Program-made: the position numbers and the translations under genes
Notes under the pieces: generated by a model
Seen by the model: the letters and a program-made list of their open reading frames with translations, nothing else
Databases searched by the model: none
What the model was told of the DNA's origin: nothing
In this document: positions 4,742 to 60,568 of the stretch, in pieces
How positions within the stretch are numbered: position 1 is the stretch's first letter
How the letters are laid out: the number at the start of each line of letters is the position of its first letter
DNA from: Gammaproteobacteria bacterium
Lineage (GTDB): Bacteria > Pseudomonadota > Gammaproteobacteria > JAADJB01
Direction of reading: 5' to 3'
Length of the DNA: 64,000 nucleotides
Assembly (NCBI GenBank): GCA_013151035.1
Contig: JAADJB010000008.1
Span: forward strand, 11,466 to 75,465

Positions 4742-5188
4742 ATGAGCAATGAGATCAATTACAAGAACAACCCCTTACACGGTGTTAGTTTAAAAAGCTT
4801 GTTGATTGAAATAGTAGATCAGTATGATTTTGAGATACTCTTTGCCTATTTAAATATCAATTGTTTTAAGACCAATCCAAGCATTGATTCCAGTGTTAAG
4901 TTTTTAAAAAAAACGGATTGGGCGCGTGAAAAAGTTGAAGTCTTCTATTTGTATGAGTTTAAAAACTTACCTGGAGCATCTTCTGAACAGTTTTCATTGC
5001 CTCCAAGGGGGAGGGTTATTCCAGAAGACCAAGCGCCGGGTGATCCTAAAGAACTGAGTTTAGAAGATGCTGAACGGTTGCGCGAAAAGCGTGCAAATAA
5101 GTCAACTGCACGAGAGCAGTCGGCTGGGCAGCGCTCGGGAATGAATGTCGATCTATGGGCGAATCGAAAAAATAAATATAAGCGATGA
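4742..5188 (+). CDS. DUF2132 (VF530-like) domain protein with a long basic C-terminal tail
   Basis: N-terminal [33 protein letters not shown]...[14 protein letters not shown] recalled as DUF2132. AT-rich gene. Confidence 0.45.
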
Positions 5189-5594
5189 CGGAACGAATAG
5201 ATGCCTAACAAATAAAGAATACGATAGGTAGCCCAATCTGTGACGGGCTAACCTACCTTAAAAACGCATCAGCCTATAGTGATTACAGGGAAAAGAGGTA
5301 ATGCTGTTTTGGTTTATGAAGAAGAAAAGGTTATAAAGATCATCCGGCTATGGACTCATTATGCATAATAGTAGAAAAGCAGGCTATTGGTTAGAACGTA
5401 CTATTATGTAGAGTGTGCCAGCTATCCAGCACCCGATCAATAGTTGTCAGACTTTAAGGTTAGGAAGTAATATGGAATATTTTCATGAGAGTGAATGCTC
5501 ACCTTTATCAGTGACTTATGCTATATTTTGCATTGATTTTGAACTCTGAAAATTGAGTTGAAATATGAATCCTGGAATTTGAGTTATAGAGAGA

Positions 5595-6340
5595 TTGATT
5601 ATGCCCTGGTATCACCTTGAACGGCACCGTCACGGCCTTGCTTCCATTGCAGTCTTGTCACTAATTGCCACTAATAGTTACTCGGCAGAAGAAGTTTTTC
5701 GTCTGGATAATCGAACTGATTTTGTTAACTATGATCTTAGTGGGCCAGGTAAGGGAAAAAGTTTCTACGATGAGGGTGCGCATTATCTACAAGAGAGTGA
5801 TTTGACTTATAAGACCACCTTATTCTACAACGGCTAAGGGTATTGCTAAAACCCACAAATCGGGGCAGGCTAATCGCATAACGCTACGTACTTATTTCAA
5901 AGGCACCCGGATTAATGCCAAACTGGAACGTGTTAGTACTGATTTTAAAGCCTTGGCAGGGAGCGCAACACCGGATCGTCAAATGGGTCTATATCAAAGT
6001 CAGCAAAAAAATTGCCAGGCGTTGGAAGTTGACGGGTAGCTATGATTATTACTCGAATAATCTGGATGGCAGGAATGCCAGTGGCACGACAAAGAATCAG
6101 CTCGGTTCATTCGGCCTTAAACGCACTCGTCTATTTGATCGCAAGAGCCTCGTTGTGTCGACCTCGTTACGTCAAAAACGAACACGTAACAATACCTATC
6201 GTGCTTCCATGTTACTGAATCGCGGTAAGGCACATCGATTCAACTTTCTGCTTGAGAAAAATCTATCGGATACTTATGCATCTGGTGGCAATGACTCTCT
6301 GAGATTATTGAGGTGGTTGGTTTGGAAAATGGTGAATTGA
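5595..6340 (+). pseudogene. frameshifted outer-membrane beta-barrel-like gene remnant
   Basis: A signal-peptide ORF (5595-5837) is followed by at least two frame changes, one near an A7 tract at 6003-6009. The continuing frames show the alternating polar/hydrophobic pattern typical of OMP strands. Confidence 0.35.
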
Positions 6341-6396
6341 AGATACTAGAAACCAGGACTGGTAGGTTTTGGCAGTAGCATCAGCAGAATAATATA

Positions 6397-47955: not shown

Positions 47956-48798
47956 ATGAAGAAACATCGAAGTAGGCAGGCAGTATCAAAAATCAGATTG
48001 TGGATTGAACGCTTGATCCAGGTGTTGCTGGGAGGCCCCGGCAGTCGTGAAAGTCTGTTATCGATACTGCGTAGCGCACACCATAAAGATTTGTTTGATG
48101 CCGATGCATTAGCCATGATCGAAGGCGTATTGCAGGTATCCGAGATGCAGGTGCGGGATATTATGATTCCCCGATCACAGATGATTGTGGTTTTGCGTGA
48201 TGATGACATCAAGGAGTCTTTGCCACAGATTATTGAATCAGGTCATTCACGTTTTCCAGTGATAGGGGATAGTCGTGACAAGGTGGTGGGAATTTTACTG
48301 GCGAAAGATCTGTTACATGAATATGCAGAGAACGAGACCCGTTTTGATATGCATGATGTTTTGCGTCCTGCTGTTTTTGTACCCGAGAGTAAACGCCTGA
48401 ATGTGTTGTTGAAAGAATTCAGGGTGAGTCGGAACCATATCGCTATTGTGGTGGATGAGTATGGTGGTGTTGCTGGCATGGTGACGATTGAAGATGTGCT
48501 GGAGCAGATTGTTGGTGAGATCGAGGATGAGCATGATGTTGAAGATGTGAACTCAATCTTCAAACATAGTGATAGCAATTACACGCTGAAGGCATTAACC
48601 ACGATTGAAGATTTTAATGCCTATTTCGAGACCGATTTTGTCGATGATGAGTACGACACCATTGCCGGTATGATGATGCGAGAGCTGGGTTGCCTACCTA
48701 AGCGTGGGGATACCGTGACTAAAGGCAAGTATAGCTTTAAGGTGTTACGTGCTGATAATCGTAGAGTGCATGTGGTGCGGTTGACGTTGGGGGTTTGA
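47956..48798 (+). CDS. corC: CBS-domain Mg/Co efflux-associated protein CorC (YbeX)
   Basis: Two CBS domains plus a C-terminal CorC_HlyC domain. Conserved operon position after ybeY. Confidence 0.88.
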   Translation: MKKHRSRQAVSKIRLWIERLIQVLLGGPGSRESLLSILRSAHHKDLFDADALAMIEGVLQVSEMQVRDIMIPRSQMIVVLRDDDIKESLPQIIESGHSRFPVIGDSRDKVVGILLAKDLLHEYAENETRFDMHDVLRPAVFVPESKRLNVLLKEFRVSRNHIAIVVDEYGGVAGMVTIEDVLEQIVGEIEDEHDVEDVNSIFKHSDSNYTLKALTTIEDFNAYFETDFVDDEYDTIAGMMMRELGCLPKRGDTVTKGKYSFKVLRADNRRVHVVRLTLGV

Positions 48799-48987
48799 GT
48801 ATGCGACTGGAAAGACAAGAGATAACGATGACGAGCTCTCAAAATACTTGCTCTATCTGTGGTGAAGGATCTTTGTGCCTACCAAGGGTGGGTATATGAT
48901 GTAGCATGTTTGAATAGCAGATATAAATGCAGGATGAATTAGAGGAAGTATGATATTTGGTTATGTGACTGTTAGTATTAAAAAATT

Positions 48988-49410
48988 ATGATGAAAAATT
49001 GTTTAAACTGTCATTTCTTATGCGATTCATACCGTGAAGAAAATTCAGGGTGTGAATTAAAATTTTCTTTGAAGCAAGAATTGCGTGAATCACTAAAAAA
49101 CAATCCAGTAGGTTATGATAGAGGATGGCATACATTACAATGTCACATGGGAGTATGGGACGAAGGAGTCTCTCCTGTAGCTAAAGGTGAAGATACGATA
49201 CTTTTTTCCCAAGATCGAGGCTATAGTTGTTTTTTTATTCCATATCGTAAATCTATGCTTTTTCCGGCTGCAATTGAAATTCAAAAACGAGAAGAAGAAA
49301 ATAGGTGGCTCAAAAGAACCAGTACTTATACAGTAATAGGTTTATGGTTAGCGGGTATAGGGTTGATACTCAATGCTCTCGTCGCAATATACCAGGCAAT
49401 AAAATGCTAA
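48988..49410 (+). CDS. hypothetical Cys-rich protein with C-terminal TM anchor (140 aa)
   Basis: N-terminal CLNCHFLCD...GCE..LQCH possible metal-binding Cys/His cluster. C-terminal hydrophobic helix. AT-rich. Confidence 0.4.
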   Translation: MMKNCLNCHFLCDSYREENSGCELKFSLKQELRESLKNNPVGYDRGWHTLQCHMGVWDEGVSPVAKGEDTILFSQDRGYSCFFIPYRKSMLFPAAIEIQKREEENRWLKRTSTYTVIGLWLAGIGLILNALVAIYQAIKC

Positions 49411-49519
49411 CAAGAAGTTCCAGGCGGACAATTGACATCGAGGTTCGTTTGGCTACGCCAAGCCTCCCTCTCTGTCAATTCCCGCTGAGCTAGTCGTTAG
49501 GCTACAAAAGGAAAATGAA

Positions 49520-49771
49520 ATGGGTGAAAAAATAGATTATCAAAATATATCTGAAGTCGCTTATACAGATAGCAAGGAAAAAGCAAATGCCTACTTACAA
49601 TTAAGTTGGGTAATGCTTAATATAGAAAGTACGCAATATTCCGAGCATGGCTGGAACACTTCATTTGTTTTTGGTTGGTTAAAAAATAATGGTGAAATAA
49701 AATATCCAGAAAAAAGTAAATGGGAAAAAAATATGGAAGAAGAAAAAGAAGATGAGTCCATACCATTTTAA
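49520..49771 (+). CDS. hypothetical small protein (83 aa)
   Basis: Intact ORF with RBS aaaggaaaatgaaatg. Lys/Glu-rich. No motif. Confidence 0.35.
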   Translation: MGEKIDYQNISEVAYTDSKEKANAYLQLSWVMLNIESTQYSEHGWNTSFVFGWLKNNGEIKYPEKSKWEKNMEEEKEDESIPF

Positions 49772-49893
49772 AATAATTCAAAGATTTAACAAGAAAAATC
49801 AACTTCGCTTGTTCCACACGCCAGTCGTGCAAAAAGTCACGTGCTGCCTATTAAAAATATTATGTTTCTAGTGGGTTTTGACGTAGGTAAATA

Positions 49894-50502
49894 ATGAATA
49901 ACGTAACTTCTGATTTTCAAATAGGTATTAGTTACACAACGGATATACCTGAAGAAATGGTCGCTGGTTTTGAATCAGCAATTGCGATCACAGGTTTAGA
50001 TATAAAATCAGAAGCTAGAGAAGTAGATTCATATGCAGGAGTTGAATGGCTGGTGCCTACAGCAGTAATTGTTTTTATCGGGAAATCATATTTCGACGGG
50101 TTTCTAAAGGAGATGGGGAAGGAACATTACCACCTTTTTAAAAAATATATAGTTACACTGTGGGAACACTTTTTTGGTCAAGATAGAGCCGTTAAATATA
50201 ATCGGGTAAGCACCAAAGGAAAAATATTGTCACTAGATAAATATTCTCCAATATTCTCAATAATGACGGACTTGCTGCCGGGTTACCGAATTAAATATTT
50301 ATTACAAGATGATATATCACAAGCAGAATACCAAAATGCGATCGAGGAATTCTTCTCATTTCTTGAAGAGCTTGATTTTGGGGTGCTAAATAAAAATATA
50401 AAAGGGCAACTTGAAAACGCAAGATCACTTGGTGGTATTATTCTTCTTACATATGAAGAAGGTGCGTTAAAAGTGCTAAATCCAGTATCAAGAAATGAGT
50501 AA
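49894..50502 (+). CDS. hypothetical protein (202 aa)
   Basis: Intact ORF in the AT-rich island. No recognisable motif. Confidence 0.4.
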   Translation: MNNVTSDFQIGISYTTDIPEEMVAGFESAIAITGLDIKSEAREVDSYAGVEWLVPTAVIVFIGKSYFDGFLKEMGKEHYHLFKKYIVTLWEHFFGQDRAVKYNRVSTKGKILSLDKYSPIFSIMTDLLPGYRIKYLLQDDISQAEYQNAIEEFFSFLEELDFGVLNKNIKGQLENARSLGGIILLTYEEGALKVLNPVSRNE

Positions 50503-50616
50503 GATAAAGAAGCATCAAAAATACGTGGATGCGATTGTTTTAGTAATCTTGAAAAGACAATGTCCAGGATGCCATGAAAAATATAACAGCCTGATAATAA
50601 TCTATAAAGGAATACA

Positions 50617-52803
50617 ATGAAGCTGACTGATAACGAGATCAGGGATATCAATCGTCATCTTGAGACGGGTAAGCCGTTGCCGGAGAAGTATCGGTTTTTG
50701 CTGTTCGAGGACAAGAAAGAAGTCGAGCTGGTGTGGAATGGCAAGAGTGGTGATGTCTGTAATGTGGTGTTACCGTTCCAGGTGATTGAGCAGGTGGATG
50801 AGCCTCGGGCGGAAGCGGTTGTTGAATTGCAATCGGATTTGTTTGATATACAGACAGGTCGGCAGGTTACTGGCTGGAACAACAAGTTAATCTGGGGTGA
50901 TAACAAGTTGATCTTGTCGTCCCTGAAAAATGGGCCGTTGCGAGAGGAGATTGAGGCGCAGGGTGGTATTAAGCTGATCTACATTGACCCACCGTTTGAT
51001 GTGGGGGCGGATTTCAGTATGGATATTGAGATCGGTGGTGAGACGCTGACCAAAAAACCCAATGTACTGGAGGAGATTGCCTATCGGGATACCTGGGGCA
51101 AGGGGGCGGATTCATTTATTAGTATGATCTATGAACGGCTAGTGTTGATGCGCGATCTATTGGCAGAGGATGGCAGTATCTATGTGCATTGTGATTGGCG
51201 GGTGAATAGTTATATTCGATTGGTCTTGGATGAGGTGTTTGGGAAGAAATATTTTAGGAATGAGGTTGTTTGGAAAAGGCAATCACCTAGTAGCAGTAAA
51301 GCAAGAGCAAAAAAATTCAGTGCGGATCACGATACAATTTTGGTTTTTTCTAAAAATGAAAGCCCATTATTTCATCCAATATATGGGGAATATCCAAAAG
51401 AAGAAATAGAAAAAAGATTTCGTCAATCTGATCAACGAGGAAGATACAAGGATGCCGAGTTAGCCACATATTCAAAAGAAACATTTGAAAGATTAAAGAA
51501 AGAAGGTAGATTGATTGTTACAAAAGGGGGGAAATATCGATATAAAATTTATCTTCGTGATATCAAAGGTGTATTGATTGATACTTTATGGATAAATATA
51601 CCACCAGTCAATTCTCAGGCAATAGAGTCTACTGGTTATGCAACCCAAAAACCCGAAGCTCTGTTAGAACGCATCATCAAAGCCTCCTCTAATGAAGGCG
51701 ACATCATTGCTGATTTCTTTTGTGGCTCTGGTACCACTGCCGCCGTTGCCGAAAAGCTGGGTCGCAAATGGATCGTCTCCGATCTCGGAAAATTCGCCAT
51801 CCATACCACCCGTAAGCGTATGATCGGCGTACAGCGTCAACTAAAGGCTGAGGACAAAAGCTGGCGCGCTTTCGAGATTCTTAATCTGGGTAAATATGAA
51901 CGCCAGCACTATATTGGCATTAATCCTGATCTGCGCGAAGAGGAAAAGCAACAACAACTGGAGGCCAAAGAGAAGGATTTCCTGAATCTTATCCTCCATG
52001 CCTATCGTGCTGAGGCAGTAAATCAGTTTAATAGCTTTCAGGGTAAGAAGGCAGGCAGACTGGTGGCAGTGGGGCCGGTTAATCTGCCGGTGACGCGTTT
52101 GTTTGTCGAAGAGGTTATTCTGGAGTGTCGACAGAAGCATATTACCAAGGTGGATATCCTGGGTTTTGAGTTTGAGATGGGGCTGTTTCCCAATATTCAG
52201 GAAGAGGCGAAGGGTAAGGGAATCGATCTTGCGATGAAATACATCCCACGTGATGTATTTGATAAGCGGGCAATCGAGAAGAACCAGGTGGTATTCCATG
52301 ATGTGTCGTTTATTGAGGTGAAGCCGCACCTGGGTAAGGGCAAGAATAAGCACCAGATTGCCATTGAACTAACTGATTTCTCAGTATTTTATTCCCAGGA
52401 TGCAGCAAGTGCCGATACCAGCCTGAAAAACAGGAAATCGAAGGTGATTGTGGATCAGGGTCTGGTGGTCAAGATCAGCAAGGATAAGGATGGTATTATC
52501 ACTCGTGAGGTCTTGACCAAGGTATGGACGGACTGGATTGATTACTGGTCGGTGGATTTTGATTTTGAATCCAAGCAAGAGATTCTTCGGGTCAGGAATG
52601 AGGAGAGTGGTGAGACCGAGGCAGTCTGGACGGGTGATTATGTGTTTGAGAATGAGTGGCAATCCTTCCGTACCAAAAAAGACCGCTCGCTGGAACTGAA
52701 AAGTGCGTTTATGGAGTGTATGCCGGGTCGTCGGAAGGTGGCTGTGAAGGTGGTGGATATCTTTGGTAATGATACGATGAAGATTATTGAGGTGACAATA
52801 TGA
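50617..52803 (+). CDS. mod: Type III restriction-modification Mod subunit (beta-class N6-adenine DNA methyltransferase)
   Basis: Characteristic Type III Mod N-terminus (..[32 protein letters not shown]). Motif IV DPPF (LIYIDPPFD) precedes motif I FCGSGTT, the beta-class order. The region between them is the expected target-recognition domain. Confidence 0.8.
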
Positions 52804-53696
52804 CAGCGCTAAAGACTCCTAAATTCTATCGACAGCGTTTTTTGTTGTTATTGTTGGAAATGGCAGGAGGTTGCTTGTCGAAAATGGATTTTCAGAAATT
52901 ACTATTTTTGTCACAAAAAGAAGCAGGGTTTTCGTATTACGATTTTGTTCCCTACCACTATGGCTGTTATTCTTTTCAGGCACAGTCTGATATTGAGTTG
53001 CTGGGATCATTGGGTTGGTTGGAGGAGAATTCAAAGAGTATTAATTTACTTGCGAAACCAGGTGATTGTTTAAAAAGTGGTGAGCTGGATGTGATTAATC
53101 AATTTACAAAACAATTTAAAGAATACCGTGGTCGAAAACTGGTTACTTATGTATATGAACGCTATCCTTATTATGCTACGCGTAGCAAGATTGCTACTGA
53201 GATACTGGATGAAATATCATACAGGAAGGTTAGTGCAGAAAGAAATAAGTTAATTGGTAAAGATAAAGTCATTTATACCATTGGTTATGAGGGGCTTTCG
53301 TTTGAGTCTTATGTTAATCAATTGCTTAAAAGTGATGTGCGCTTATTATGTGATGTTCGTAAAAATCCGTTAAGTCGGAAGTTTGGTTTTTCCAAGGGTG
53401 TCCTTAGCCGGCTACTGCCAAAATTGGGTGTTAATTATTTACACATACCTGATCTTGGAATACGGTCGGATATGCGTCAGGAATTAAATTCGGAAGAGGA
53501 TTACAAAAAACTTTTCAGGGCTTATGTGCGGACATTGCCTCAAAAGATGGGGAGTTTGCAATTACTGAAAAGTTTACTCAATGAGCATCAAAGAATTGCA
53601 CTGACCTGTTATGAAAAGGAACATCATTCTTGTCACCGTCACTGTGTTACTGACTATTTGGAGAATAAGAGTAATATCAGGGTGCGTCATATATGA
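52800..53696 (+). CDS. two-domain protein: N-terminal Panacea-like (DUF4065/SocA-like) domain fused to C-terminal DUF488
   Basis: ATGA overlap with mod. N-terminal [40 protein letters not shown] resembles the Panacea consensus (KLqKLlY...GPy). C-terminal [36 protein letters not shown] matches the DUF488 signature (TIGhs..DVR..P.S...GI.Y.h...LG). Confidence 0.5.
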
Positions 53697-54523
53697 GCAG
53701 GATGCGAAAAGTATTTATAACTGTTAAAACATACCCAACACTTTCAAAAAAATATGCCGAACTGGTTTGTACAGCAGGTATCCTTGATGATGGAAGTTGG
53801 GTTCGTATTTATCCATTGCCATTTAGAAAGCTGGATTATGAAAAAAGATACAAAAAATATCAATGGATGGAATTGCCGCTTATTAAAAATGAGAGTGATC
53901 CTCGTCCAGAAAGTTACAGGGTAATTGATATTGATCAAGTAAAAATAGTCGGTGATCCTGTAGATACAAAACAGGGATGGCTCGAACGAAAAAATATAGT
54001 CTTTGGCAAGAATAAGACTTATTTAGATTTGGATGATCTTATTGAGAAGGCTAGTAATAATGAGCTTTCAATGGCTGTTTTCAAGCCAACTAAAATACTG
54101 GATTTGGTGATAGAAGAAGTTGACCGTGAATGGAGTAGTGAAAGTTTGGATCTTCTTAAAGCCAAAGCTAAGCAATTATCCTTGTTTCAGACAGAAGAGG
54201 AGTTAAAAAAAGAATTTTTAATTGTTGATAAATTGCCGTACAAGTTTTCATATCGATTTGAGGATTGCAAGGGAAAGCAAAGTAAATTGATGATTGAAGA
54301 CTGGGAAATAGGCATGTTGTACTGGAATTGTTTGAAACAGACAGGAAATAATGAAAGTGAAGCACTAGAACTGGTGCGAAAAAAATATATCGATGAGTTT
54401 TCTAATAAGGATTTGTTTTTATTTTTGGGTACAACCAGGCAATTCCATGGTTGGGCTAAAAATCCGTTTGTAATTATCGGGGTATTTTACCCTCCGATTG
54501 ATAATCAGATTTCTTTTTTATAG
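53693..54523 (+). CDS. hypothetical protein (276 aa) translationally coupled between the DUF488 fusion gene and res
   Basis: ATGA overlap upstream. Ends 11 nt before the res RBS. No recognisable domain. Confidence 0.45.
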   Translation: MSRMRKVFITVKTYPTLSKKYAELVCTAGILDDGSWVRIYPLPFRKLDYEKRYKKYQWMELPLIKNESDPRPESYRVIDIDQVKIVGDPVDTKQGWLERKNIVFGKNKTYLDLDDLIEKASNNELSMAVFKPTKILDLVIEEVDREWSSESLDLLKAKAKQLSLFQTEEELKKEFLIVDKLPYKFSYRFEDCKGKQSKLMIEDWEIGMLYWNCLKQTGNNESEALELVRKKYIDEFSNKDLFLFLGTTRQFHGWAKNPFVIIGVFYPPIDNQISFL

Positions 54524-54534
54524 GGAGGTCAATA

Positions 54535-57219
54535 ATGGCTCTGCATCCTGATTTTCCGGATTCGCCCCATGTTATTCTTGAACCGGATATTCGCTGGTTT
54601 CCTGCTGATGAAGCCCTGCGTGAATCCTCTTATGAGAAATTATTACCACCACTGGTACATAAGTTACGCAGGAAGGTTCAGTTATGGCGTGAGACAGGTT
54701 ATGAGGGTGCGTCCCCTACTAGCATTCATCTTTTGAACTGGTGGTTTGAGCGTGAGCATCTAATGCCAAAGTCCGATGGTTCTATGTCCACGTTTCAGTA
54801 TTACTTTGCCCAACGCGAGGCAGTGGAAACGGTGGTTTATCTTTATGATGTGGTCAAGGTAAAGGATAAATATGATCTGATCCGGTTTGATTCATCCGGT
54901 GCGGTATCAGCGGGTATGTTTGATGAGGCATGGCGGCGCTTTGTAATCAAGATGGCTACAGGTTCGGGTAAGACCAAGGTAATGAGTTTGATCCTCGCAT
55001 GGAGTTATTTTCATAAGATGTATGAAGATGATTCTGAACTGGCGCGTAACTTTCTGTTGATTACTCCGAATATCATTGTGCTGGATCGTATTCGTACGGA
55101 TTTTGATGGCCTGCGTATCTTCTTCGAAGACCCTGTGCTGCCCGATAATGGTTATGAAGGTTACAACTGGCGTGATGATTTTCAACTGACCCTGCATATT
55201 CAGGATGAGGTCAATATTACCCGAAAGATTGGCAATATCTTCCTAACCAATATTCATCGGGTTTATTCAGGTAATGATATCGAACCATCGGCGGATGATG
55301 ACGATACCATGGATTACTTTTTAGGTAAGAGGCCGGTTGGAAAGACCACTGATTCAAAGGTTGATCTGGGGGATATTGTCAGGGATATTGATGAGCTGGT
55401 CGTGCTGAATGATGAGGCACATCATATCCATGACAGTCGTTTAGCCTGGTTTAAGTCAATTGAGGATATTCATCATCGTTTGCAGCATAAAGATCGTTCT
55501 CTTTCACTGCAAATTGATGTGACTGCAACACCCAAGCACAATAATGGGGCTATCTTTGTGCAGACAGTATCTGATTATCCCTTGGTTGAGGCCATTGCGC
55601 AGAATGTGGTGAAACACCCTGTGTTGCCTGATTCTGCCAGCCGTACTAAATTGTCTGAGCGACAAAGCTCGCGTTATACCGAGAAATACGCAGATTATTT
55701 GCATCTGGGGGTTGAGGAATGGCGTAAGGCATACGGTGAGCATAAAAAACTGGAGAAGAAGGCTATCCTCTTTGTGATGACAGATGACACCAAAAATTGT
55801 GATGATGTTGCTGAGTATCTTGAGACTACCTATCCTGAGCTAAAAGATGCAGTGCTGGTCATTCATACCAGGAATAATGGTGAGGTCAGCGAGGCTGCTA
55901 GTGGCAAGAAAAAAGAGGAGCTGGAACTATTACGCAAACAGTCCAATGCGATTGATAGCTGGGAGAGTCCCTACAAGGCTATCGTTTCCGTGCTGATGTT
56001 GAAAGAGGGTTGGGATGTCAGGAATGTCACCACCATTGTGGGTCTGCGTGCTTATGGAGCCAAAAGCAATATTCTGCCAGAGCAGACCTTGGGACGCGGG
56101 CTGCGCAGAATGTATCCCGGCAATGAGGTGGAAGAATATGTCAGTGTCGTCGGTACCGATGCCTTTATGGACTTTGTTGAGTCTATTCAGTCTGAAGGTG
56201 TGGAACTTGAGCATAAGGCTATGGGTGAGGGCACTAAACCAAAAACACCGATTATTGTTGAGGTGGATAATGAAAATACCAGTAAGGATATTGAACTGCT
56301 TGATATTGAGATTCCGGTATTAACAGCAAGAATCTATCGAGAGTACAAAAACCTTGAGGATCTGGATGTCAGTTGCTTTGACTACAAGAAGGTGAAATAT
56401 AGATCCTTTAGTGAAGAAGATATGCGAGAGATTGTGTTCAAGTATGTGACCAGTAATGAGATCAGTCATACGACCTTGCTGGATTCCTGTGTGGTGACGG
56501 ATTATCGCTCTGTTATTGGTTATTTTGCTCAAATTATCATGAAGGATTTACGCCTGGTCAGTGGTTATGATGCGTTATATGGAAGGGTGAAATCCTTTAT
56601 TCAGAATGACTTGTTCGAAACAGAGATTGATCTTGATAGTATGAACACCCTGCGTAATCTATCGGAGTTAGAGGCGAGCAAAACACTGGTTGAGACCTTT
56701 AAGAAGCAGATTAATGCGCTTACGGTTCGAGATAAAGGTGATGCGGAGATCAAGGATTATATCAAGTTAAGGAAGACCCGCCCATTTGTGGTTAAGGAAC
56801 AGGGCTACCTTATTCCTAACAAAAGTATCTTTAACAAGATTATCGGTGATAGTCATCTGGAGCTGCAATTTGCCGCCTTTCTTGAAGGTTGTGAAGATAT
56901 TATTTCTTACGTAAAAAACTATCTGGCTGTACATTTTCAGATTGATTACGTTAATGCCGATGGCAATATTTCAAATTATTATCCTGACTTTATTGTTAAG
57001 TGCTCTTCAAGCTCAGTAATTATTGTAGAAACCAAGGGGCTTGAGGATCTTGATGTACCCCTTAAGATGGAGCGATTACGCGAGTGGTGTGTCGATGTTA
57101 ACAAAGCACAATCGGTTATTCATTATGATTATGTATTTGTTGATGAGGAAGGTTTTAATCAATATCAGCCTAAAACCTTTCAGACATTGATGTCAGGTTT
57201 CAGGGGATATAAGGCTTAA
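54535..57219 (+). CDS. res: Type III restriction enzyme Res subunit (SF2 helicase plus C-terminal PD-(D/E)xK nuclease)
   Basis: RBS gggagg. Helicase motif I MATGSGKTKV, motif II LNDEAHHI, motif VI QTLGRGLRR. C-terminal nuclease motif YYPDF...IIVETKG. Confidence 0.8.
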   Translation: MALHPDFPDSPHVILEPDIRWFPADEALRESSYEKLLPPLVHKLRRKVQLWRETGYEGASPTSIHLLNWWFEREHLMPKSDGSMSTFQYYFAQREAVETVVYLYDVVKVKDKYDLIRFDSSGAVSAGMFDEAWRRFVIKMATGSGKTKVMSLILAWSYFHKMYEDDSELARNFLLITPNIIVLDRIRTDFDGLRIFFEDPVLPDNGYEGYNWRDDFQLTLHIQDEVNITRKIGNIFLTNIHRVYSGNDIEPSADDDDTMDYFLGKRPVGKTTDSKVDLGDIVRDIDELVVLNDEAHHIHDSRLAWFKSIEDIHHRLQHKDRSLSLQIDVTATPKHNNGAIFVQTVSDYPLVEAIAQNVVKHPVLPDSASRTKLSERQSSRYTEKYADYLHLGVEEWRKAYGEHKKLEKKAILFVMTDDTKNCDDVAEYLETTYPELKDAVLVIHTRNNGEVSEAASGKKKEELELLRKQSNAIDSWESPYKAIVSVLMLKEGWDVRNVTTIVGLRAYGAKSNILPEQTLGRGLRRMYPGNEVEEYVSVVGTDAFMDFVESIQSEGVELEHKAMGEGTKPKTPIIVEVDNENTSKDIELLDIEIPVLTARIYREYKNLEDLDVSCFDYKKVKYRSFSEEDMREIVFKYVTSNEISHTTLLDSCVVTDYRSVIGYFAQIIMKDLRLVSGYDALYGRVKSFIQNDLFETEIDLDSMNTLRNLSELEASKTLVETFKKQINALTVRDKGDAEIKDYIKLRKTRPFVVKEQGYLIPNKSIFNKIIGDSHLELQFAAFLEGCEDIISYVKNYLAVHFQIDYVNADGNISNYYPDFIVKCSSSSVIIVETKGLEDLDVPLKMERLREWCVDVNKAQSVIHYDYVFVDEEGFNQYQPKTFQTLMSGFRGYKA

Positions 57220-57285
57220 TATCGGTATTTTGTATTTATGTAGCAATATGCTACAATATAGGTCGTATTGTAGCGAGGTGTACTG

Positions 57286-57678
57286 ATGTCGACTCCACTC
57301 AGGGTAAATGACCGTCTTTTTAAGGATGCCGAGGCGGAGGGTTCTTTAATGAATCGCTCAACAGCCAAGCAGGTTGAGTTTTGGGCCGAGCTAGGCAGAC
57401 GTGTAGCTCCTTCGGTATCACCCGCAAATATGCTGGCATTGATGCAGGGGATTGCACAGGTGCATATTGAGATACCTGACTTACAGCCGGTAAATCCTGA
57501 TCATGTTTTCGATGTGGTTGATAAAGCCAGTGCATCGGGTTTACTGGGTCAGCAGATTACACAGGGTGGCTTGTATTATGAGGTGAGTAAAACCCAACCA
57601 GGGTTGCTGGATCAGGTTATGCCCGATGGGCAACGCCTTGCGGGACGTTTCAATAGTGGTTTATTTATCCCTGAATGA
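57286..57678 (+). CDS. ParD-like (PF11903-type) RHH antitoxin
   Basis: MSTPLRVNDRLFKDAEAEGSLMNRSTAKQVEFWAELGR N-terminus. ATGA overlap with the downstream zeta-like toxin. Confidence 0.6.
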   Translation: MSTPLRVNDRLFKDAEAEGSLMNRSTAKQVEFWAELGRRVAPSVSPANMLALMQGIAQVHIEIPDLQPVNPDHVFDVVDKASASGLLGQQITQGGLYYEVSKTQPGLLDQVMPDGQRLAGRFNSGLFIPE

Positions 57679-58259
57679 ATGTGGATAAACAGCTTTGGTT
57701 ATTAGCGGGTGGTAACGGAGCAGGTAAATCAACCTTCTACCAACAGTTTTTGGCAACAACGGAATTACCCTTTATCAATGCCGATATACTTGCCCGGCAA
57801 CTTGATGCTGAGAATAGCGAAGCGATTAGTTATAAGGCAGCAAGGCTAGCTGAAAAACTACGAACGGATTTATTACAATCAGGTGTCAGTTTTTGTTTTG
57901 AAACGGTTTTCTCTCATCCATCAAAGATTGATTTTTTAGCACAAGCAAAATCATTGGGCTATGAGATTATTTTGGTTTATATCCATCTACAAACAGATGA
58001 ATTGAACCAGGCGCGTGTTATGCAACGTGTGAAACAGGGTGGGCATAATGTGCCTATGGATAAGATTATTAGTCGTATCCCAAGAACAATGTCCTATGTT
58101 AGTGATGCATTGCCTCTGGTTAACCGGGCGGTATTTTATGATAATTCATTACACAGCCAGCCATTTTTATCCGTGGCATCGCTGTTTGCAGGGCAGTTGC
58201 AGAAGCATGTGAAGCCATTACCTGATTGGGCGGAGAAGATGTTGGTGAATTACATTTGA
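57675..58259 (+). CDS. zeta-toxin-like P-loop kinase (AAA/zeta family) toxin
   Basis: Walker A LLAGGNGAGKST and zeta/PezT-like fold length (194 aa). Paired with the upstream ParD-like gene. Confidence 0.7.
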   Translation: MNVDKQLWLLAGGNGAGKSTFYQQFLATTELPFINADILARQLDAENSEAISYKAARLAEKLRTDLLQSGVSFCFETVFSHPSKIDFLAQAKSLGYEIILVYIHLQTDELNQARVMQRVKQGGHNVPMDKIISRIPRTMSYVSDALPLVNRAVFYDNSLHSQPFLSVASLFAGQLQKHVKPLPDWAEKMLVNYI

Positions 58260-58933
58260 TTGCGGTTTTTTCTGATTCCAAACAGCCCGATTAAACCCGA
58301 GATCAAAAGCCAGGCGCTTGCGGGCAGGGGTACAATTGCTAAACCATATTGTATGTGATCAACTTCTATGTTGTTGACGCTCCCTCTATCCGAAATGAAT
58401 ATCTTTGATATACCGCCTGCATTGCTTACGCCGAGAAAGCGATCCTCAGCTGTCGTTCCATTAAAACTGTAATCACCTAAAGTAGCTGTCAAGACACCCA
58501 GAGAGGCTCCATTTTGATCAAATGCCTCAAAATCAACCAGGCTATTCGGTGTGCCATCGGTCCATACCAGGCCGGCTCGGGTTGGAAAACCACCAAGAAT
58601 ATTGGTGTCAAATGTAAAGGTCATACTCGTTGGGTCGTAAATACTGGTGGCATTGCCACCGTTACCGTTAATGACGCCATTGTCTATATCGACTGAATCA
58701 CCGGAAGGCCCTTTATAAATGATACCTTGATTAACGCTGAGCCCAGGGGTGTTCAGTTGCTGGTCTTCGAAGTCTTCCAGATAAAACCAGGAGAAAGTCT
58801 CTCCGGAAAAGGGGCTGTCACCTGAACTCAGATAGGGCGATGGCCCGAGTAATGCCGCTGATGTGACTGTGGACAAGATAAAAAGACAGAAACCTGTAAC
58901 GGTATTTATTAGGTGATGATATTTGCGTGTCAT
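58250..58933 (-). CDS. PEP-CTERM sorting-domain secreted protein
   Basis: Signal peptide. Gly/Asn-rich body. C-terminal VPLPASAWLLISGLIGLFGIRKNRNQM PEP-CTERM motif. Confidence 0.8.
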   Translation of the reverse strand: MTRKYHHLINTVTGFCLFILSTVTSAALLGPSPYLSSGDSPFSGETFSWFYLEDFEDQQLNTPGLSVNQGIIYKGPSGDSVDIDNGVINGNGGNATSIYDPTSMTFTFDTNILGGFPTRAGLVWTDGTPNSLVDFEAFDQNGASLGVLTATLGDYSFNGTTAEDRFLGVSNAGGISKIFISDRGSVNNIEVDHIQYGLAIVPLPASAWLLISGLIGLFGIRKNRNQM

Positions 58934-59020
58934 TGGGATATCCCCTTGATTATTCGTTTTTTATATGAGATCCATCTTCCAGTAAAAGTCTAGCTGATAT
59001 CGATTGTTTGTCAATTTCGC

Positions 59021-60568
59021 GTGGGTCTGTCATATAATTGTGTGATGGATATCCTTTTGTCTCAGCGTGAACCTGTAAAAAACCTGTTGGCACTGTTTAG
59101 CGGCCTGCTAATCCCATTGGCCTTTGCGCCTTATTCATACGGTCTGCTGGTGTTGCCTGCGCTGGCACTGTTTTTCTATCTGTTGGAGTCATGCTCGGCT
59201 CGGCAGGCTTTTGTGCGCGGTTGGTGTTTTGGTCTGGGTCTGTTTGGTGCCGGTCTGTACTGGGTTTATATCAGTATCCATTTTTATGGACATGTCGGTA
59301 TCTTTCTCAGTGTGGCAGTGACCTTTGCCATGGCGGCTCTGTTGGCATTATATCCGGCTATCTTTGCCTGGTTGGTGGTACGTTTCAAGCCGGTTATGCC
59401 CGGCCTTCGACTGGTACTGTTGATGCCGGCTGTCTGGTTATTAATGGAGTGGACTAAGGGCTGGTTGTTTACTGGTTTCCCCTGGTTGACCCTGGGTTAT
59501 ACGCAGATTGATACCGCGCTAGCGATGTATGCACCGATTGTCGGGGTCTATGGTCTGTCTCTTTTATTGGTGATGCAGGCAGGGGTGTTGACCTGGGTGC
59601 TGGTGGTGGGTCGTCGTGCTGTGTTAATGGGCGGGCTGATTTTCGCCTTGATTTGGCTGCCTGCCTTATTGTTCGATGAAGTGCAATGGACGCAGGCCTT
59701 GGGTGAACCGATAGCGGTGAGTCTGGTGCAGGGCAATGTTGATCAGAATGATAAATGGAATCCATCATTACGTGGGGAATTTATCAATCAATATCTTGAG
59801 ATGAGTCTGGGACATCTGGATAGTGACATTATCGTATGGCCAGAGACTGCCATCCCGGCCTTTTATCATCAGCTTGAATCTTCAGTGATTGCTGAACTGG
59901 ATCGTCTCGGCAAGAACTCTGGTACCAGTTTTCTAGTGGGTGTCCCGGTGCTGGATCAACAACGATGGGACTATTTTAATGCCGTTGTGGCACTGGGTCA
60001 GGGGCAAGGCACTTACTACAAAAATCATCTAGTGCCCTTTGGTGAATATCTACCTCTGCGGCAATGGCTTGGCACCTTATTACATTTTATGGATATCGAG
60101 ATGGGAGACTTCAGTCGGGGCGGGGTCTCACAACCATTGATTCAGGCCGCAGGTTTACCGGTGAGTGTGTCGATTTGTTACGAAGCGATCTTTGAAACGG
60201 AACGTCTGAGCGATCTGCCCGAGGCGGCCTTGTTAGTGAATGTGAGTAATGATGCCTGGTTTGCAGATTCATCTGCCCCGCATCAACATCTGGAGATGGT
60301 GCGTATGCGTGCGCTGGAGGCGGGACGTTGGGTGTTGCGTGCAACCAATACCGGGATTACGGCGATTATTGATGAACGGGGCAGGGTTGTAGCGCGTGCG
60401 CCACAGTTTGAGGTCTATGTGTTGGATGGACAGTTACAGCCGCGCAGTGGGGCAACCCCCTTTGTTATCTGGGGGAATATCCCTGTGTTGGTGTTGGTGG
60501 GGCTGATTTTGTTGGGTTGCGCGACAAGCCCACTGTTCAGGCTTTTCGGCATGAAGAAGGTTAGGTGA
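59021..60568 (+). CDS. lnt: apolipoprotein N-acyltransferase
   Basis: 515 aa. N-terminal multi-TM region plus a C-N hydrolase domain (E..K..C triad region ICYEAIF). Follows corC in gene order. Confidence 0.9.
   Translation: MGLSYNCVMDILLSQREPVKNLLALFSGLLIPLAFAPYSYGLLVLPALALFFYLLESCSARQAFVRGWCFGLGLFGAGLYWVYISIHFYGHVGIFLSVAVTFAMAALLALYPAIFAWLVVRFKPVMPGLRLVLLMPAVWLLMEWTKGWLFTGFPWLTLGYTQIDTALAMYAPIVGVYGLSLLLVMQAGVLTWVLVVGRRAVLMGGLIFALIWLPALLFDEVQWTQALGEPIAVSLVQGNVDQNDKWNPSLRGEFINQYLEMSLGHLDSDIIVWPETAIPAFYHQLESSVIAELDRLGKNSGTSFLVGVPVLDQQRWDYFNAVVALGQGQGTYYKNHLVPFGEYLPLRQWLGTLLHFMDIEMGDFSRGGVSQPLIQAAGLPVSVSICYEAIFETERLSDLPEAALLVNVSNDAWFADSSAPHQHLEMVRMRALEAGRWVLRATNTGITAIIDERGRVVARAPQFEVYVLDGQLQPRSGATPFVIWGNIPVLVLVGLILLGCATSPLFRLFGMKKVR

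What the first reader, a model, noticed from the sequence alone, without database searches (positions are those of the whole stretch)
50617..57219. Type III restriction-modification operon with two extra, translationally coupled genes between mod and res, one a Panacea-like/DUF488 fusion
Canonical Type III systems are mod-res pairs. Here mod (50617-52803) and res (54535-57219) are separated by two ORFs whose starts overlap the preceding stops (ATGA at 52800 and at 53693), so all four genes form one tight operon. The first inserted ORF joins an N-terminal Panacea/DUF4065-like domain to a full DUF488 domain. Panacea is a hyperpromiscuous antitoxin domain, and DUF488 has no established function. 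The second inserted ORF (276 aa) has no recognisable domain. I do not recognise this four-gene arrangement as a described system. It could be an RM-embedded addiction or abortive-infection module, or a new accessory pair that alters Type III restriction.
Basis: partly seen in the sequence, partly recalled or inferred. Interest (0 to 1): 0.85.

Follow-up and report, generated by a model that had tools for sequence, protein, structure and literature searches.

The report
Defence-candidate gene pair inserted in restriction operon
A normal two-gene Type III restriction-modification operon has had a self-contained, already catalogued but untested two-gene cassette (a DUF488 enzyme plus a double OB-fold DNA-binding protein) inserted exactly between its genes, at a spot where related operons carry other unrelated cargo.

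Summary
The interpretation as a new four-gene system does not hold. A and B match PADLOC's candidate models PDC-M19A and PDC-M19B (E 1e-101 and 9e-114), which came from a 'guilt-by-embedding' screen and were never tested. A-B is an autonomous pair. A lies directly upstream of B in 74 of 78 genomic loci across many phyla, and only about 10 of those loci have this mod/res around the pair. Of 69 close relatives of this mod-res operon, 37 have mod abutting res and 3 carry A-B. The other 25 carry different cargo at the same junction, mostly KilA-N, HepT/MNT, SLFN-AlbA_2, ImmA+DUF4411, an AAA ATPase pair or DUF3800. A-B is also compositionally foreign (GC 0.34-0.37, against 0.43-0.45 for mod and res). 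A combines a winged-helix domain, closest to the DarT-binding domain of DarG and weakly Panacea-like, with a DUF488 domain that keeps its conserved catalytic-type residues. B is a tandem OB-fold protein resembling Teb1, RPA and POT1. DUF488 plus B is the conserved core, including on phages and plasmids. The likely function is a separate module acting on ssDNA or DNA ends, for defence or toxin-antitoxin activity. That mechanism is inferred.

The parts
50617..52803 (+). mod: Type III-like beta-class DNA methyltransferase (728 aa)
   Evidence: Pfam N6_N4_Mtase E 8e-47. PADLOC MTase_III E 1.7e-111. The translation shows DPPF (motif IV) ahead of FCGSG (motif I). GC 0.449.
52800..53696 (+). A: PDC-M19A, a fusion of a winged-helix (Panacea/DarG-CTD-like) domain and DUF488 (298 aa)
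   Evidence: PADLOC PDC-M19A E 1.3e-101. phrog_14939 E 9e-57. AF2 model pLDDT 90.4. GC 0.371. Start overlaps the mod stop (ATGA).
52800..53264 (+). A N-terminal domain (about residues 1-155): winged helix plus helical extension
53304..53660 (+). A C-terminal DUF488 domain (residues 169-287)
53693..54523 (+). B: PDC-M19B, tandem OB-fold protein (276 aa)
54524..54534 (+). B-res spacer with a GGAGG ribosome-binding site, retained from the ancestral mod-res junction
   Evidence: Sequence. Cargo-free relatives have the same GGAGG-N7-AATA|ATG ahead of res.
54535..57219 (+). res: Type III-like restriction subunit, SF2 helicase plus C-terminal PD-ExK nuclease (894 aa)
   Evidence: Pfam ResIII E 8e-15 and RE_endonuc E 2.5e-4. 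PADLOC REase_III E 1.8e-18. NCBIfam BPTD_3080 restriction endonuclease family E 1e-79, below its cut-off. The translation shows GSGKT, DEAH and PD...ETK motifs. GC 0.429.

Best explanation
Shown: the region is an ordinary mod-res Type III restriction-modification operon with an autonomous two-gene cassette (A-B, PADLOC candidate PDC-M19) inserted at the mod|res junction. The insertion cut off the last few codons of mod and kept the ribosome-binding site and start of res, so all four genes are read as one coupled transcript. In this RM lineage the junction is a recurrent cargo slot. Relatives carry nothing there, or carry KilA-N, HepT/MNT, SLFN-AlbA_2, ImmA+DUF4411, an AAA ATPase pair or DUF3800. 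A-B does not depend on the RM, because most copies in nature stand alone.

Inferred: A-B is a separate module of defence or toxin-antitoxin type that acts on single-stranded DNA or DNA ends.
- B, a tandem OB-fold protein resembling Teb1, RPA and POT1, binds ssDNA or an end, for example phage replication intermediates or restriction-generated ends.
- The DUF488 domain of A belongs to the rhodanese-phosphatase superfamily and keeps its conserved Cys, His and Arg residues. It would process a terminal phosphate or sugar-phosphate on that substrate.
- The N-terminal domain of A resembles the DarG C-terminal domain and Panacea. It would dock on B or restrain it, possibly by occupying its ssDNA groove as DarG does with DarT.

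My estimate is about 0.9 for the shown part and about 0.4 for the inferred mechanism.
For: Catalogued candidate:
- PADLOC PDC-M19A and PDC-M19B hit A and B at E 1e-101 and 9e-114.
- The source is a guilt-by-embedding screen. The cassette is listed with a count of 174, which I read as RefSeq v209 occurrences, and was not tested.

Autonomy of the pair:
- A lies immediately upstream of B in 74 of 78 non-redundant genomic loci from many phyla. Only about 10 of them have this mod/res.
- Solo pairs sit among housekeeping genes.

The junction is a cargo slot:
- Of 69 Res-related loci, 37 have mod abutting res, 28 have an insert longer than 300 nt, and only 3 of those inserts are A-B.
- The other cargos were identified by Pfam.
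- The closest Res relatives (84-87% identity) carry KilA-N; A-B carriers lie at 73-83%.
- In the B tree, embedded and solo copies are interleaved.

Signs of insertion:
- GC is 0.371 for A and 0.343 for B, against 0.449 for mod and 0.429 for res.
- The junction alignment shows a precise slot.

Folds.

The DUF488-B core:
- B is adjacent to a DUF488 gene in 45 of 47 phage, plasmid and viral loci, in four different arrangements.
- DUF488 catalytic-type residues are invariant.
- The conserved polar and aromatic residues of B appear, from the predicted strand positions only, to lie in the L12 and L45 loops and strands beta2-beta3 of the first OB fold. This placement was not checked on the model's coordinates.

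Weak support for B being the costly partner: B is inactivated while A stays intact in L020, L025 and L144, with no reverse case.
Against: - No experiment exists for PDC-M19 or for any DUF488 protein.
- B shows no recognisable catalytic fold.
- The Panacea-like domain is absent from about 17 of 45 phage and plasmid variants, so it cannot be essential to the core function.
- Only about 6 of 29 solo loci have RM genes within two genes; the rest look like housekeeping surroundings. Defence-island association is therefore modest.
- B is unusually well conserved for a defence or toxin protein, with 73% mean column identity across phyla.
- Synergy with the flanking RM is neither shown nor excluded.
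Confidence: 0.6

Rival explanations
1. A-B is a toxin-antitoxin (addiction) pair built like DarTG. B is a toxic ssDNA-binding effector. A neutralises it in two ways: the Panacea/DarG-CTD-like domain sequesters B, and DUF488 reverses or prevents its effect on DNA. Its position inside the RM only stabilises the locus.
For: - SocA_Panacea gives recurrent sub-threshold hits.
- The gene order is antitoxin first, with an ATGA overlap.
- The same slot holds TA-like cargo: HepT/MNT and ImmA+DUF4411.
- B is inactivated or lost while A stays intact in 3 loci, with no reverse case.
- A ParD/zeta-like pair lies next door.
Against: - B has no toxin-like catalytic domain and is very strongly conserved.
- Many variants lack the N-domain, and some are convergent rather than co-transcribed. 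That fits poorly with a labile-antitoxin operon.
- The 3-to-0 asymmetry is not statistically meaningful.
Confidence: 0.25
2. A and B are accessory subunits of a four-component Type III enzyme, for example end processing or target sensing that modifies restriction.
For: All four genes are tightly translationally coupled. The mod-A-B-res arrangement recurs in several phyla (L006-L011, L019, L022, L023, L052, L135, L158).
Against: - About 68 of 78 A-B pairs have no such RM nearby.
- 66 of 69 related mod-res operons lack A-B, and 37 have no insert at all.
- The same junction holds at least six unrelated cargos.
- A-B differs in composition from mod and res.
- Embedded and solo copies interleave in the B tree.
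Confidence: 0.05
3. A-B is a DNA repair or end-healing module of mobile elements with no defence or toxin role, for example protecting or processing element ssDNA during transfer, integration or replication. It landed in the RM slot by chance.
For: - Distant DUF488+B pairs lie next to tyrosine recombinases or immunity genes on a Gordonia prophage-type phage, Sulfolobus conjugative plasmids and a Burkholderia IncP plasmid.
- Sequence conservation is high.
- Many solo chromosomal copies sit among housekeeping genes.
Against: - The pair is repeatedly embedded in defence operons: this Type III lineage here, and BREX, DISARM or Type I RM in the PADLOC screen.
- It shares the slot with defence and TA cargo.
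- Its distribution is patchy and horizontally transferred.
Confidence: 0.15

Closest known systems
PADLOC phage-defence candidate PDC-M19 (Payne, Hughes, Fineran and Jackson, bioRxiv 10.1101/2024.01.29.577857)
   Same: The same two protein families in the same order: A matches PDC-M19A and B matches PDC-M19B, both full length. The same logic applies, a cassette found nested inside another defence operon.
   Different: [quoted passage not shown] PDC-M19 is only a candidate. No phenotype, domain analysis or mechanism for it was found in the text or supplements searched.
Defence genes embedded in other defence operons ('guilt by embedding'), such as PrrC in Type I RM
   Same: A conserved operon junction repeatedly receives unrelated defence or TA cargo while the flanking genes stay intact.
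   Different: In the material I could read, a Type III mod|res junction was not described as such a slot. The slot here is precise to a few nucleotides and keeps translational coupling.
DarTG toxin-antitoxin and defence system
   Same: The N-domain of A is structurally closest to the C-terminal DarT-binding domain of DarG. The logic of an enzyme domain plus a binding domain in one protein, with a partner that handles ssDNA, is the same.
   Different: There is no macrodomain and no DarT-type ADP-ribosyltransferase. The enzyme is DUF488 and the partner is a tandem OB-fold protein. Sequence similarity is marginal (E 0.37).
PanAT (Panacea/DUF4065) toxin-antitoxin pairs (Kurata et al., PNAS 2022, PMC8832971)
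   Same: A Panacea-like domain is encoded upstream of, and overlapping, a partner gene. The domain is known for swapping partners.
   Different: The Pfam gathering score is not reached. The domain is fused to an enzyme domain. DUF488 and OB-fold partners are not mentioned in that paper. The domain is dispensable in many DUF488+B variants.
[quoted passage not shown] Recalled from memory; the paper could not be retrieved here.
   Same: The DUF488 fold matches PTP phosphatases and diphthine/tetrapyrrole methylase N-domains, as that classification states. Pfam DUF488-N3a ('active' subclade) is hit weakly. As I recall the abstract, it predicts DNA-end processing in conflict systems.
   Different: I could not check whether this exact DUF488 plus tandem-OB pairing is described there. 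Pfam DuOB (PF22557) is not hit by the window protein and is hit only sub-threshold by 2 of 92 relatives.
Canonical Type III RM (EcoP15I/EcoP1I type)
   Same: Order mod then res; beta-class methyltransferase; Res with an SF2 helicase and a C-terminal PD-(D/E)xK nuclease.
   Different: Res is divergent: it is weak against the PADLOC and NCBIfam Type III models and nearer the 'BPTD_3080 family'. Two foreign genes lie between mod and res.

Membership tests
Type III restriction-modification system | Mod is a beta-class N6/N4 DNA methyltransferase (motif IV DPPY/F ahead of motif I FxGxG) | tested here: met
   N6_N4_Mtase E 8e-47. MTase_III E 1.7e-111. DPPF precedes FCGSG in the translation.
Type III restriction-modification system | Res has SF2 helicase motifs and a C-terminal PD-(D/E)xK nuclease | tested here: met
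   ResIII E 8e-15 and RE_endonuc E 2.5e-4. GSGKT, DEAH and PD..ETK motifs in the translation. The PADLOC REase_III match is only E 1.8e-18.
Type III restriction-modification system | mod and res are adjacent and co-transcribed as a two-gene unit | tested here: not met
   1.7 kb of foreign genes lie between them in the window. 37 of 69 relatives do have mod abutting res, so the ancestral state meets the feature.
Type III restriction-modification system | ATP-dependent cleavage that needs two inversely oriented unmethylated sites | not testable with these tools
   Biochemical property.
PADLOC PDC-M19 candidate | Both protein HMMs matched, genes adjacent and on the same strand in the order A then B | tested here: met
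   PDC-M19A E 1.3e-101 over residues 9-296. PDC-M19B E 9.2e-114 over residues 4-275. 4-nt overlap.
PADLOC PDC-M19 candidate | Anti-phage activity | not testable with these tools
   I found no report of a test. The paper says seven systems were confirmed and PDC-M19 is listed only as a candidate.
DUF488 (PF04343) | Pfam gathering score reached and family-invariant motifs present (GYEG, DxR, CxE, CHR) | tested here: met
   88.3 bits against a cut-off of 22.2. The motifs are conserved in 76-77 of 77 homologues. The fold is PTP/rhodanese-like.
Panacea / SocA-like antitoxin domain (PF13274, DUF4065) | Pfam gathering score reached | tested here: not met
   14.6 bits against a cut-off of 25.7, E 0.067, covering only model positions 68-109.
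Panacea / SocA-like antitoxin domain (PF13274, DUF4065) | Remote homology supported by family-wide signal and fold | tested here: inconclusive
   It is the top Pfam family for 24 of 74 diverse N-domains at E<=0.1, best 3.5e-4. The fold is a winged helix closest to DarG-CTD. No profile-profile test against a Panacea alignment was possible.
Panacea / SocA-like antitoxin domain (PF13274, DUF4065) | Neutralises an adjacent toxin | not testable with these tools
   Needs toxicity and rescue assays.
DarTG | DarT ADP-ribosyltransferase and DarG macrodomain | tested here: not met
   No such domains were found in A or B. B is a tandem OB. Only the DarG C-terminal domain has a counterpart.
DuOB (PF22557, dual OB-containing domain) | Pfam model matched | tested here: not met
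   No hit for the window protein even at E<=10. Two of 92 relatives hit at E about 0.002, below the cut-off. The tandem-OB architecture itself is supported.

The most novel reading that the evidence does not exclude
A-B would be the first functional assignment for DUF488. In this reading it is a DarTG-like, two-pronged immune or toxin-antitoxin module. A telomere-protein-like tandem-OB effector seizes ssDNA or DNA ends. It is controlled by a fused protein whose Panacea/DarG-CTD-like domain mimics ssDNA and whose DUF488 domain chemically processes the DNA terminus. The Type III mod|res junction would be a dedicated, exchangeable slot that co-expresses such modules with restriction so that they act on restriction-generated ends.
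Probability: 0.2. Interest if true: 0.75.

Novelty: new member of a known kind. Interest (0 to 1): 0.4.

Why it matters
As a 'new four-gene RM system' the finding does not stand. It is one more case of a defence candidate nested in a defence operon, and the pair is already in PADLOC.

Three things remain of value:
A is paired with B in nearly every locus examined. The pair is found across many bacterial phyla and on phages and plasmids. B relatives, without a detected DUF488 partner, are also on Sulfolobus plasmids. The pair is completely uncharacterised. DUF488 has no known function, and B has no Pfam family.
- The fold assignments give concrete, cheap experiments: a tandem OB like Teb1, RPA and POT1, and a DarG-CTD-like domain fused to a PTP/rhodanese-type enzyme.
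- The mod|res junction of this Type III lineage behaves as a precise cargo slot with at least seven different cargos. This extends guilt-by-embedding to Type III systems and offers a small, clean hunting ground for further candidates, such as the 193-aa partner of the AAA ATPase.

Tried and rejected
- Four-component Type III enzyme: rejected on distribution.
- B as a member of Pfam DuOB: only 2 of 92 relatives hit, and below threshold.
- Gordonia phage gp44 (immunity repressor) as an A homologue: rejected (BLASTP E 1.6). The DUF488 partner there is gp42.
- Flanking direct or inverted repeats, or an integrase, that could explain the island or the insertion: nothing convincing.
- Promoter and terminator scans: not above shuffled expectation.
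- Retrieving Burroughs and Aravind 2023 (lqad029): failed by DOI, a guessed PMC id and a PubMed id. 'DuOB' and 'PDC-M19' do not occur in the searchable main texts.
- NCBIfam gives no name for A or B.


Full report
**Observation.** The six-frame ORF list gives mod at 50617-52803 (728 aa), ORF A at 52800-53696 (298 aa), ORF B at 53693-54523 (276 aa) and res at 54535-57219 (894 aa), all on the + strand. The raw sequence shows ATGA at 52800-52803 and at 53693-53696. B ends with TAG at 54521-54523, followed by GGAGG and the res ATG at 54535. Pfam gives N6_N4_Mtase for mod (E 8e-47), ResIII plus a weak RE_endonuc for res, and DUF488 for A residues 169-287 (E 8e-25). It gives nothing for B. The translation shows DPPF ahead of FCGSG in Mod, and GSGKT, DEAH and PD...ETK in Res, so both look intact. 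The Panacea label rests on a sub-threshold hit of 14.6 bits against a cut-off of 25.7.

**The pair is already catalogued.** Against PADLOC-DB v2, A matches PDC-M19A (E 1.3e-101, full length) and B matches PDC-M19B (E 9.2e-114, full length). The PDC models come from Payne, Hughes, Fineran and Jackson (bioRxiv 10.1101/2024.01.29.577857). I read the count as occurrences in RefSeq v209; the column header was not seen. The abstract says seven systems were confirmed, and PDC-M19 appears only as a candidate. Both proteins also match phage protein families of unknown function, phrog_14939 and phrog_25907.

**The pair is autonomous.**
- A and B each have thousands of homologues. A profile of B finds 2,438 clusters at 50% identity. 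The listed full-length matches are about 260-290 aa, and none of the 150 best is longer than 330 aa.
They span Pseudomonadota, Nitrospirota, Planctomycetota, Bacteroidota, Verrucomicrobiota, Chloroflexota, Cyanobacteriota, Bacillota and Deinococcota.
- In the 78 non-redundant loci retrieved, A lies immediately upstream of B on the same strand in 74. The exceptions include loci cut at contig ends.
- Only about 10 loci (L006-L011, L019, L022, L023, L052) have homologues of this mod and/or res around the pair.
- The other loci show no recurrent neighbour family. Examples sit between housekeeping genes.
- Among 116 genes within two positions of 29 solo pairs, a few are Type IIG or Type I RM genes. 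Most are ordinary metabolism genes.

**The mod|res junction is a cargo slot.**
- I retrieved 80 metagenome loci encoding the closest Res relatives (72-87% identity). Of these, 69 had both mod and res on the contig.
- In 37 of the 69, mod abuts or overlaps res. In 4 there is a short gap. In 28 there is an insert of more than 300 nt. Only 3 of these inserts are A-B (L135, L158, and L144 with B deleted).
- The other identified inserts are listed below. A few inserts held only unclassified or doubtful ORFs.
  - a 275-aa KilA-N protein (12 loci; in L093 it sits together with DUF3800, and in L144 together with the A-B remnant)
  - HepT, in three loci with its MNT nucleotidyltransferase partner (4 loci)
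  - a SLFN_AlbA_2/HATPase_c_4 protein (3)
  - an ImmA/IrrE-HTH protein with DUF4411 (2; these two loci also hold HepT and MNT)
  - an AAA_15/21 ATPase with a 193-aa partner (2)
  - DUF3800 (1)
- The window's nearest Res relatives (84-87%) carry KilA-N, and the next nearest (83%) carry nothing. A-B carriers are scattered from 73 to 83%.
- In a neighbour-joining tree of B, embedded and solo copies interleave within one clade.
- Cargo-free relatives end mod with ...VE(I/V)T(I/V)GG..* and run GGAGG-N7-AATA straight into the res ATG. The window, a KilA-N carrier and another A-B carrier all truncate mod at ...EVTI*/EVSV* with ATGA onto the cargo start, and all keep AATA|ATG at res.
- GC content falls from 0.449 (mod) and 0.429 (res) to 0.371 (A) and 0.343 (B), with GC3 of 0.49 and 0.44 against 0.34 and 0.31.
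- Together these results show an insertion into a pre-existing two-gene operon. They argue against a dedicated four-component enzyme.

**What A is.**
- The AF2 model is confident (pLDDT 90.4).
- A sequence profile also picks up DarG weakly (E 0.37), with the shared motif [11 protein letters not shown]...DF-P--YG-YS.
- That DarG domain inhibits DarT by mimicking ssDNA (Deep et al., Structure 2023, as cited in PMC12170906).
- SocA_Panacea is the top Pfam family for 24 of 74 diverse N-domains (best E 3.5e-4), but none reaches the gathering score. 'Panacea-like' is a reasonable remote-homology label, not an established membership.
- G162-Y163, D185, R187, C270-x-E272 and C278-H279-R280 are each identical in all 77 diverse homologues, and E164 and G165 in 76 of them. 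C270 ends strand 265-270, and the CHR motif opens helix 279-290. This is the strand-loop-helix position of the catalytic loop in this superfamily, so the domain looks active.

**What B is.**
- The AF2 model is acceptable (pLDDT 77.6, pTM 0.77).
- Foldseek's only hit with E below 0.001 is the tandem OB pair Teb1 AB (E 4.4e-4, probability 0.99). It is followed by RPA and POT1. B is therefore a tandem OB-fold protein.
- In 92 diverse members, R38, D69, R71 and W204 are invariant. P15, S18, E23, C26-T-A-G29, K55, E73, S74, W96, R99, D203 and E205 are conserved in at least 90%.
- Judged from the predicted strand positions only, not from the model's coordinates, the N-terminal set falls in loops L12 and L45 and strands beta2-beta3 of the first OB. 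This is the usual nucleic-acid-binding face, and it is rich in aromatic residues.
- No catalytic fold was recognised. Pfam DuOB is hit only below threshold, by two distant relatives.

**The conserved core is DUF488 plus B.**
- In Gordonia phages (Nymphadora gp43), the B homologue lies beside the immunity repressor and two genes from the integrase. It converges on gp42, which is annotated 'HipA toxin?' but is in fact a 150-aa DUF488 protein.
- The same convergent B/DUF488 pair is on Rhizobium pRL8, Burkholderia pYS1 and a Streptomyces plasmid.
- Across 47 phage, plasmid and IMG/VR loci, B is adjacent to a DUF488 gene in 45:
  - 28 have the window's architecture
  - 10 are co-directional with a DUF488-only gene
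  - 5 are convergent
  - 2 have DUF488 downstream
- The enzyme-OB partnership is therefore obligatory, and the Panacea-like domain is an optional addition.

**Mechanism (inferred).** The best-supported reading is that A-B is a separate module that works on ssDNA or DNA ends. B binds the nucleic acid. DUF488 processes a terminal phosphate or sugar-phosphate. The N-domain docks on or restrains B.

A DarTG-like toxin-antitoxin variant of this idea gains some support:
- the match to DarG-CTD;
- the antitoxin-first, overlapping gene order;
- the TA-type cargo in the same slot;
- three loci where B is inactivated or deleted while A stays intact: in-frame stops in L020 and L025, and a deletion in L144, with no reverse case.

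These points count against it:
- the strong conservation of B;
- the lack of a toxin-like domain in B;
- the variants without the N-domain or with convergent genes.

A pure repair or mobile-element maintenance role cannot be excluded. Whether co-transcription with mod and res gives synergy, for instance by acting on restriction-generated ends, is open.

**Verdict.**
- The proposed novelty, an undescribed four-gene Type III system, is not supported.
- The locus is a new example of a known phenomenon, a defence candidate embedded in a defence operon, and the candidate is already in PADLOC.
- Residual interest lies in three things: the complete lack of functional data for a widespread DUF488/tandem-OB pair, the testable structural hypotheses obtained here, and the finding that this Type III junction is a precise, frequently exchanged cargo slot.

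Noticed in passing
window 57286-58259 (+): A second coupled pair lies directly downstream of res: a ParD-like antitoxin (PF11903, E 6e-7, 130 aa) and a Zeta_toxin/AAA_33 P-loop kinase (E 7e-13, 194 aa). The second ORF starts (57675) four bases before the first ends (57678). It is probably an independent toxin-antitoxin module in the same island.
   Followed up: partly
window 48800-59020: The whole block between corC (47956-48798) and lnt (59021-60568) looks like an inserted island of about 10 kb. It begins with three very low-GC ORFs (48988-49410, 49520-49771, 49894-50502; GC 0.30-0.36) that match no confident family in Pfam, PADLOC or NCBIfam (two of the three were scanned against NCBIfam). 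No integrase or convincing flanking repeats were found.
   Followed up: partly
window 58250-58933 (-): This 227-aa ORF ends in VPLPASAWLLISGLIGLFGIRKNR, which looks like a PEP-CTERM-type sorting tail. It has no Pfam hit. Its 3' end overlaps the end of the zeta-like gene.
   Followed up: no
L086-L165 (metagenome relatives of res), mod|res junction: The junction holds at least seven different cargos: KilA-N (12 loci), HepT with or without MNT (4), SLFN_AlbA_2+HATPase_c_4 (3), ImmA/IrrE-HTH + DUF4411 (2), an AAA_15/21 ATPase plus an unannotated 193-aa protein (2), DUF3800 (1) and A-B (3). The 193-aa partner (L116:6420-7001) has no Pfam hit and may be another unexplored candidate.
   Followed up: partly
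L166 (Gordonia phage Nymphadora NC_031061.1), locus 4968-6265: gp42, annotated 'HipA toxin, toxin-antitoxin system?', is a DUF488 protein (E 1e-29). It converges on gp43, a B-family homologue, beside the immunity repressor gp44 and two genes from the integrase. The same arrangement is in seven records of Gordonia phages.
   Followed up: yes
L020:10001-10804, L025:3644-4471, L144:1128-2101: B carries one in-frame stop in two MAG loci. In L144 it is deleted down to 25 residues and a KilA-N gene sits downstream of the remnant. A stays intact in all three. No locus was seen with B intact and the DUF488 domain lost. The numbers are small and assembly errors are possible.
   Followed up: partly
window 53693-54523 (protein B, residues 26-143): A profile of B gives a weak hit to the Spl DnaX mini-intein (7cfv_A, E 0.034). 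The intein's catalytic Cys does not align, and the fold searches give OB folds instead. Probably chance.
   Followed up: partly
L167 (Sulfolobus islandicus pSOG2 NC_010598.1) 5004-6364; also NC_010597.1 and Saccharolobus shibatae NZ_CP077714.1: B-family homologues occur on archaeal plasmids. On pSOG2, a conjugative plasmid, the gene is next to a tyrosine recombinase and is followed by an overlapping 168-aa ORF with no Pfam hit. No DUF488 partner was detected there.
   Followed up: partly
window 53693 vs 53702: The public annotation of this MAG (protein P0121, 273 aa) starts B three codons later, which would remove the ATGA overlap. Homologues keep the longer N-terminus (MS..RK), which favours the start at 53693.
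   Followed up: partly
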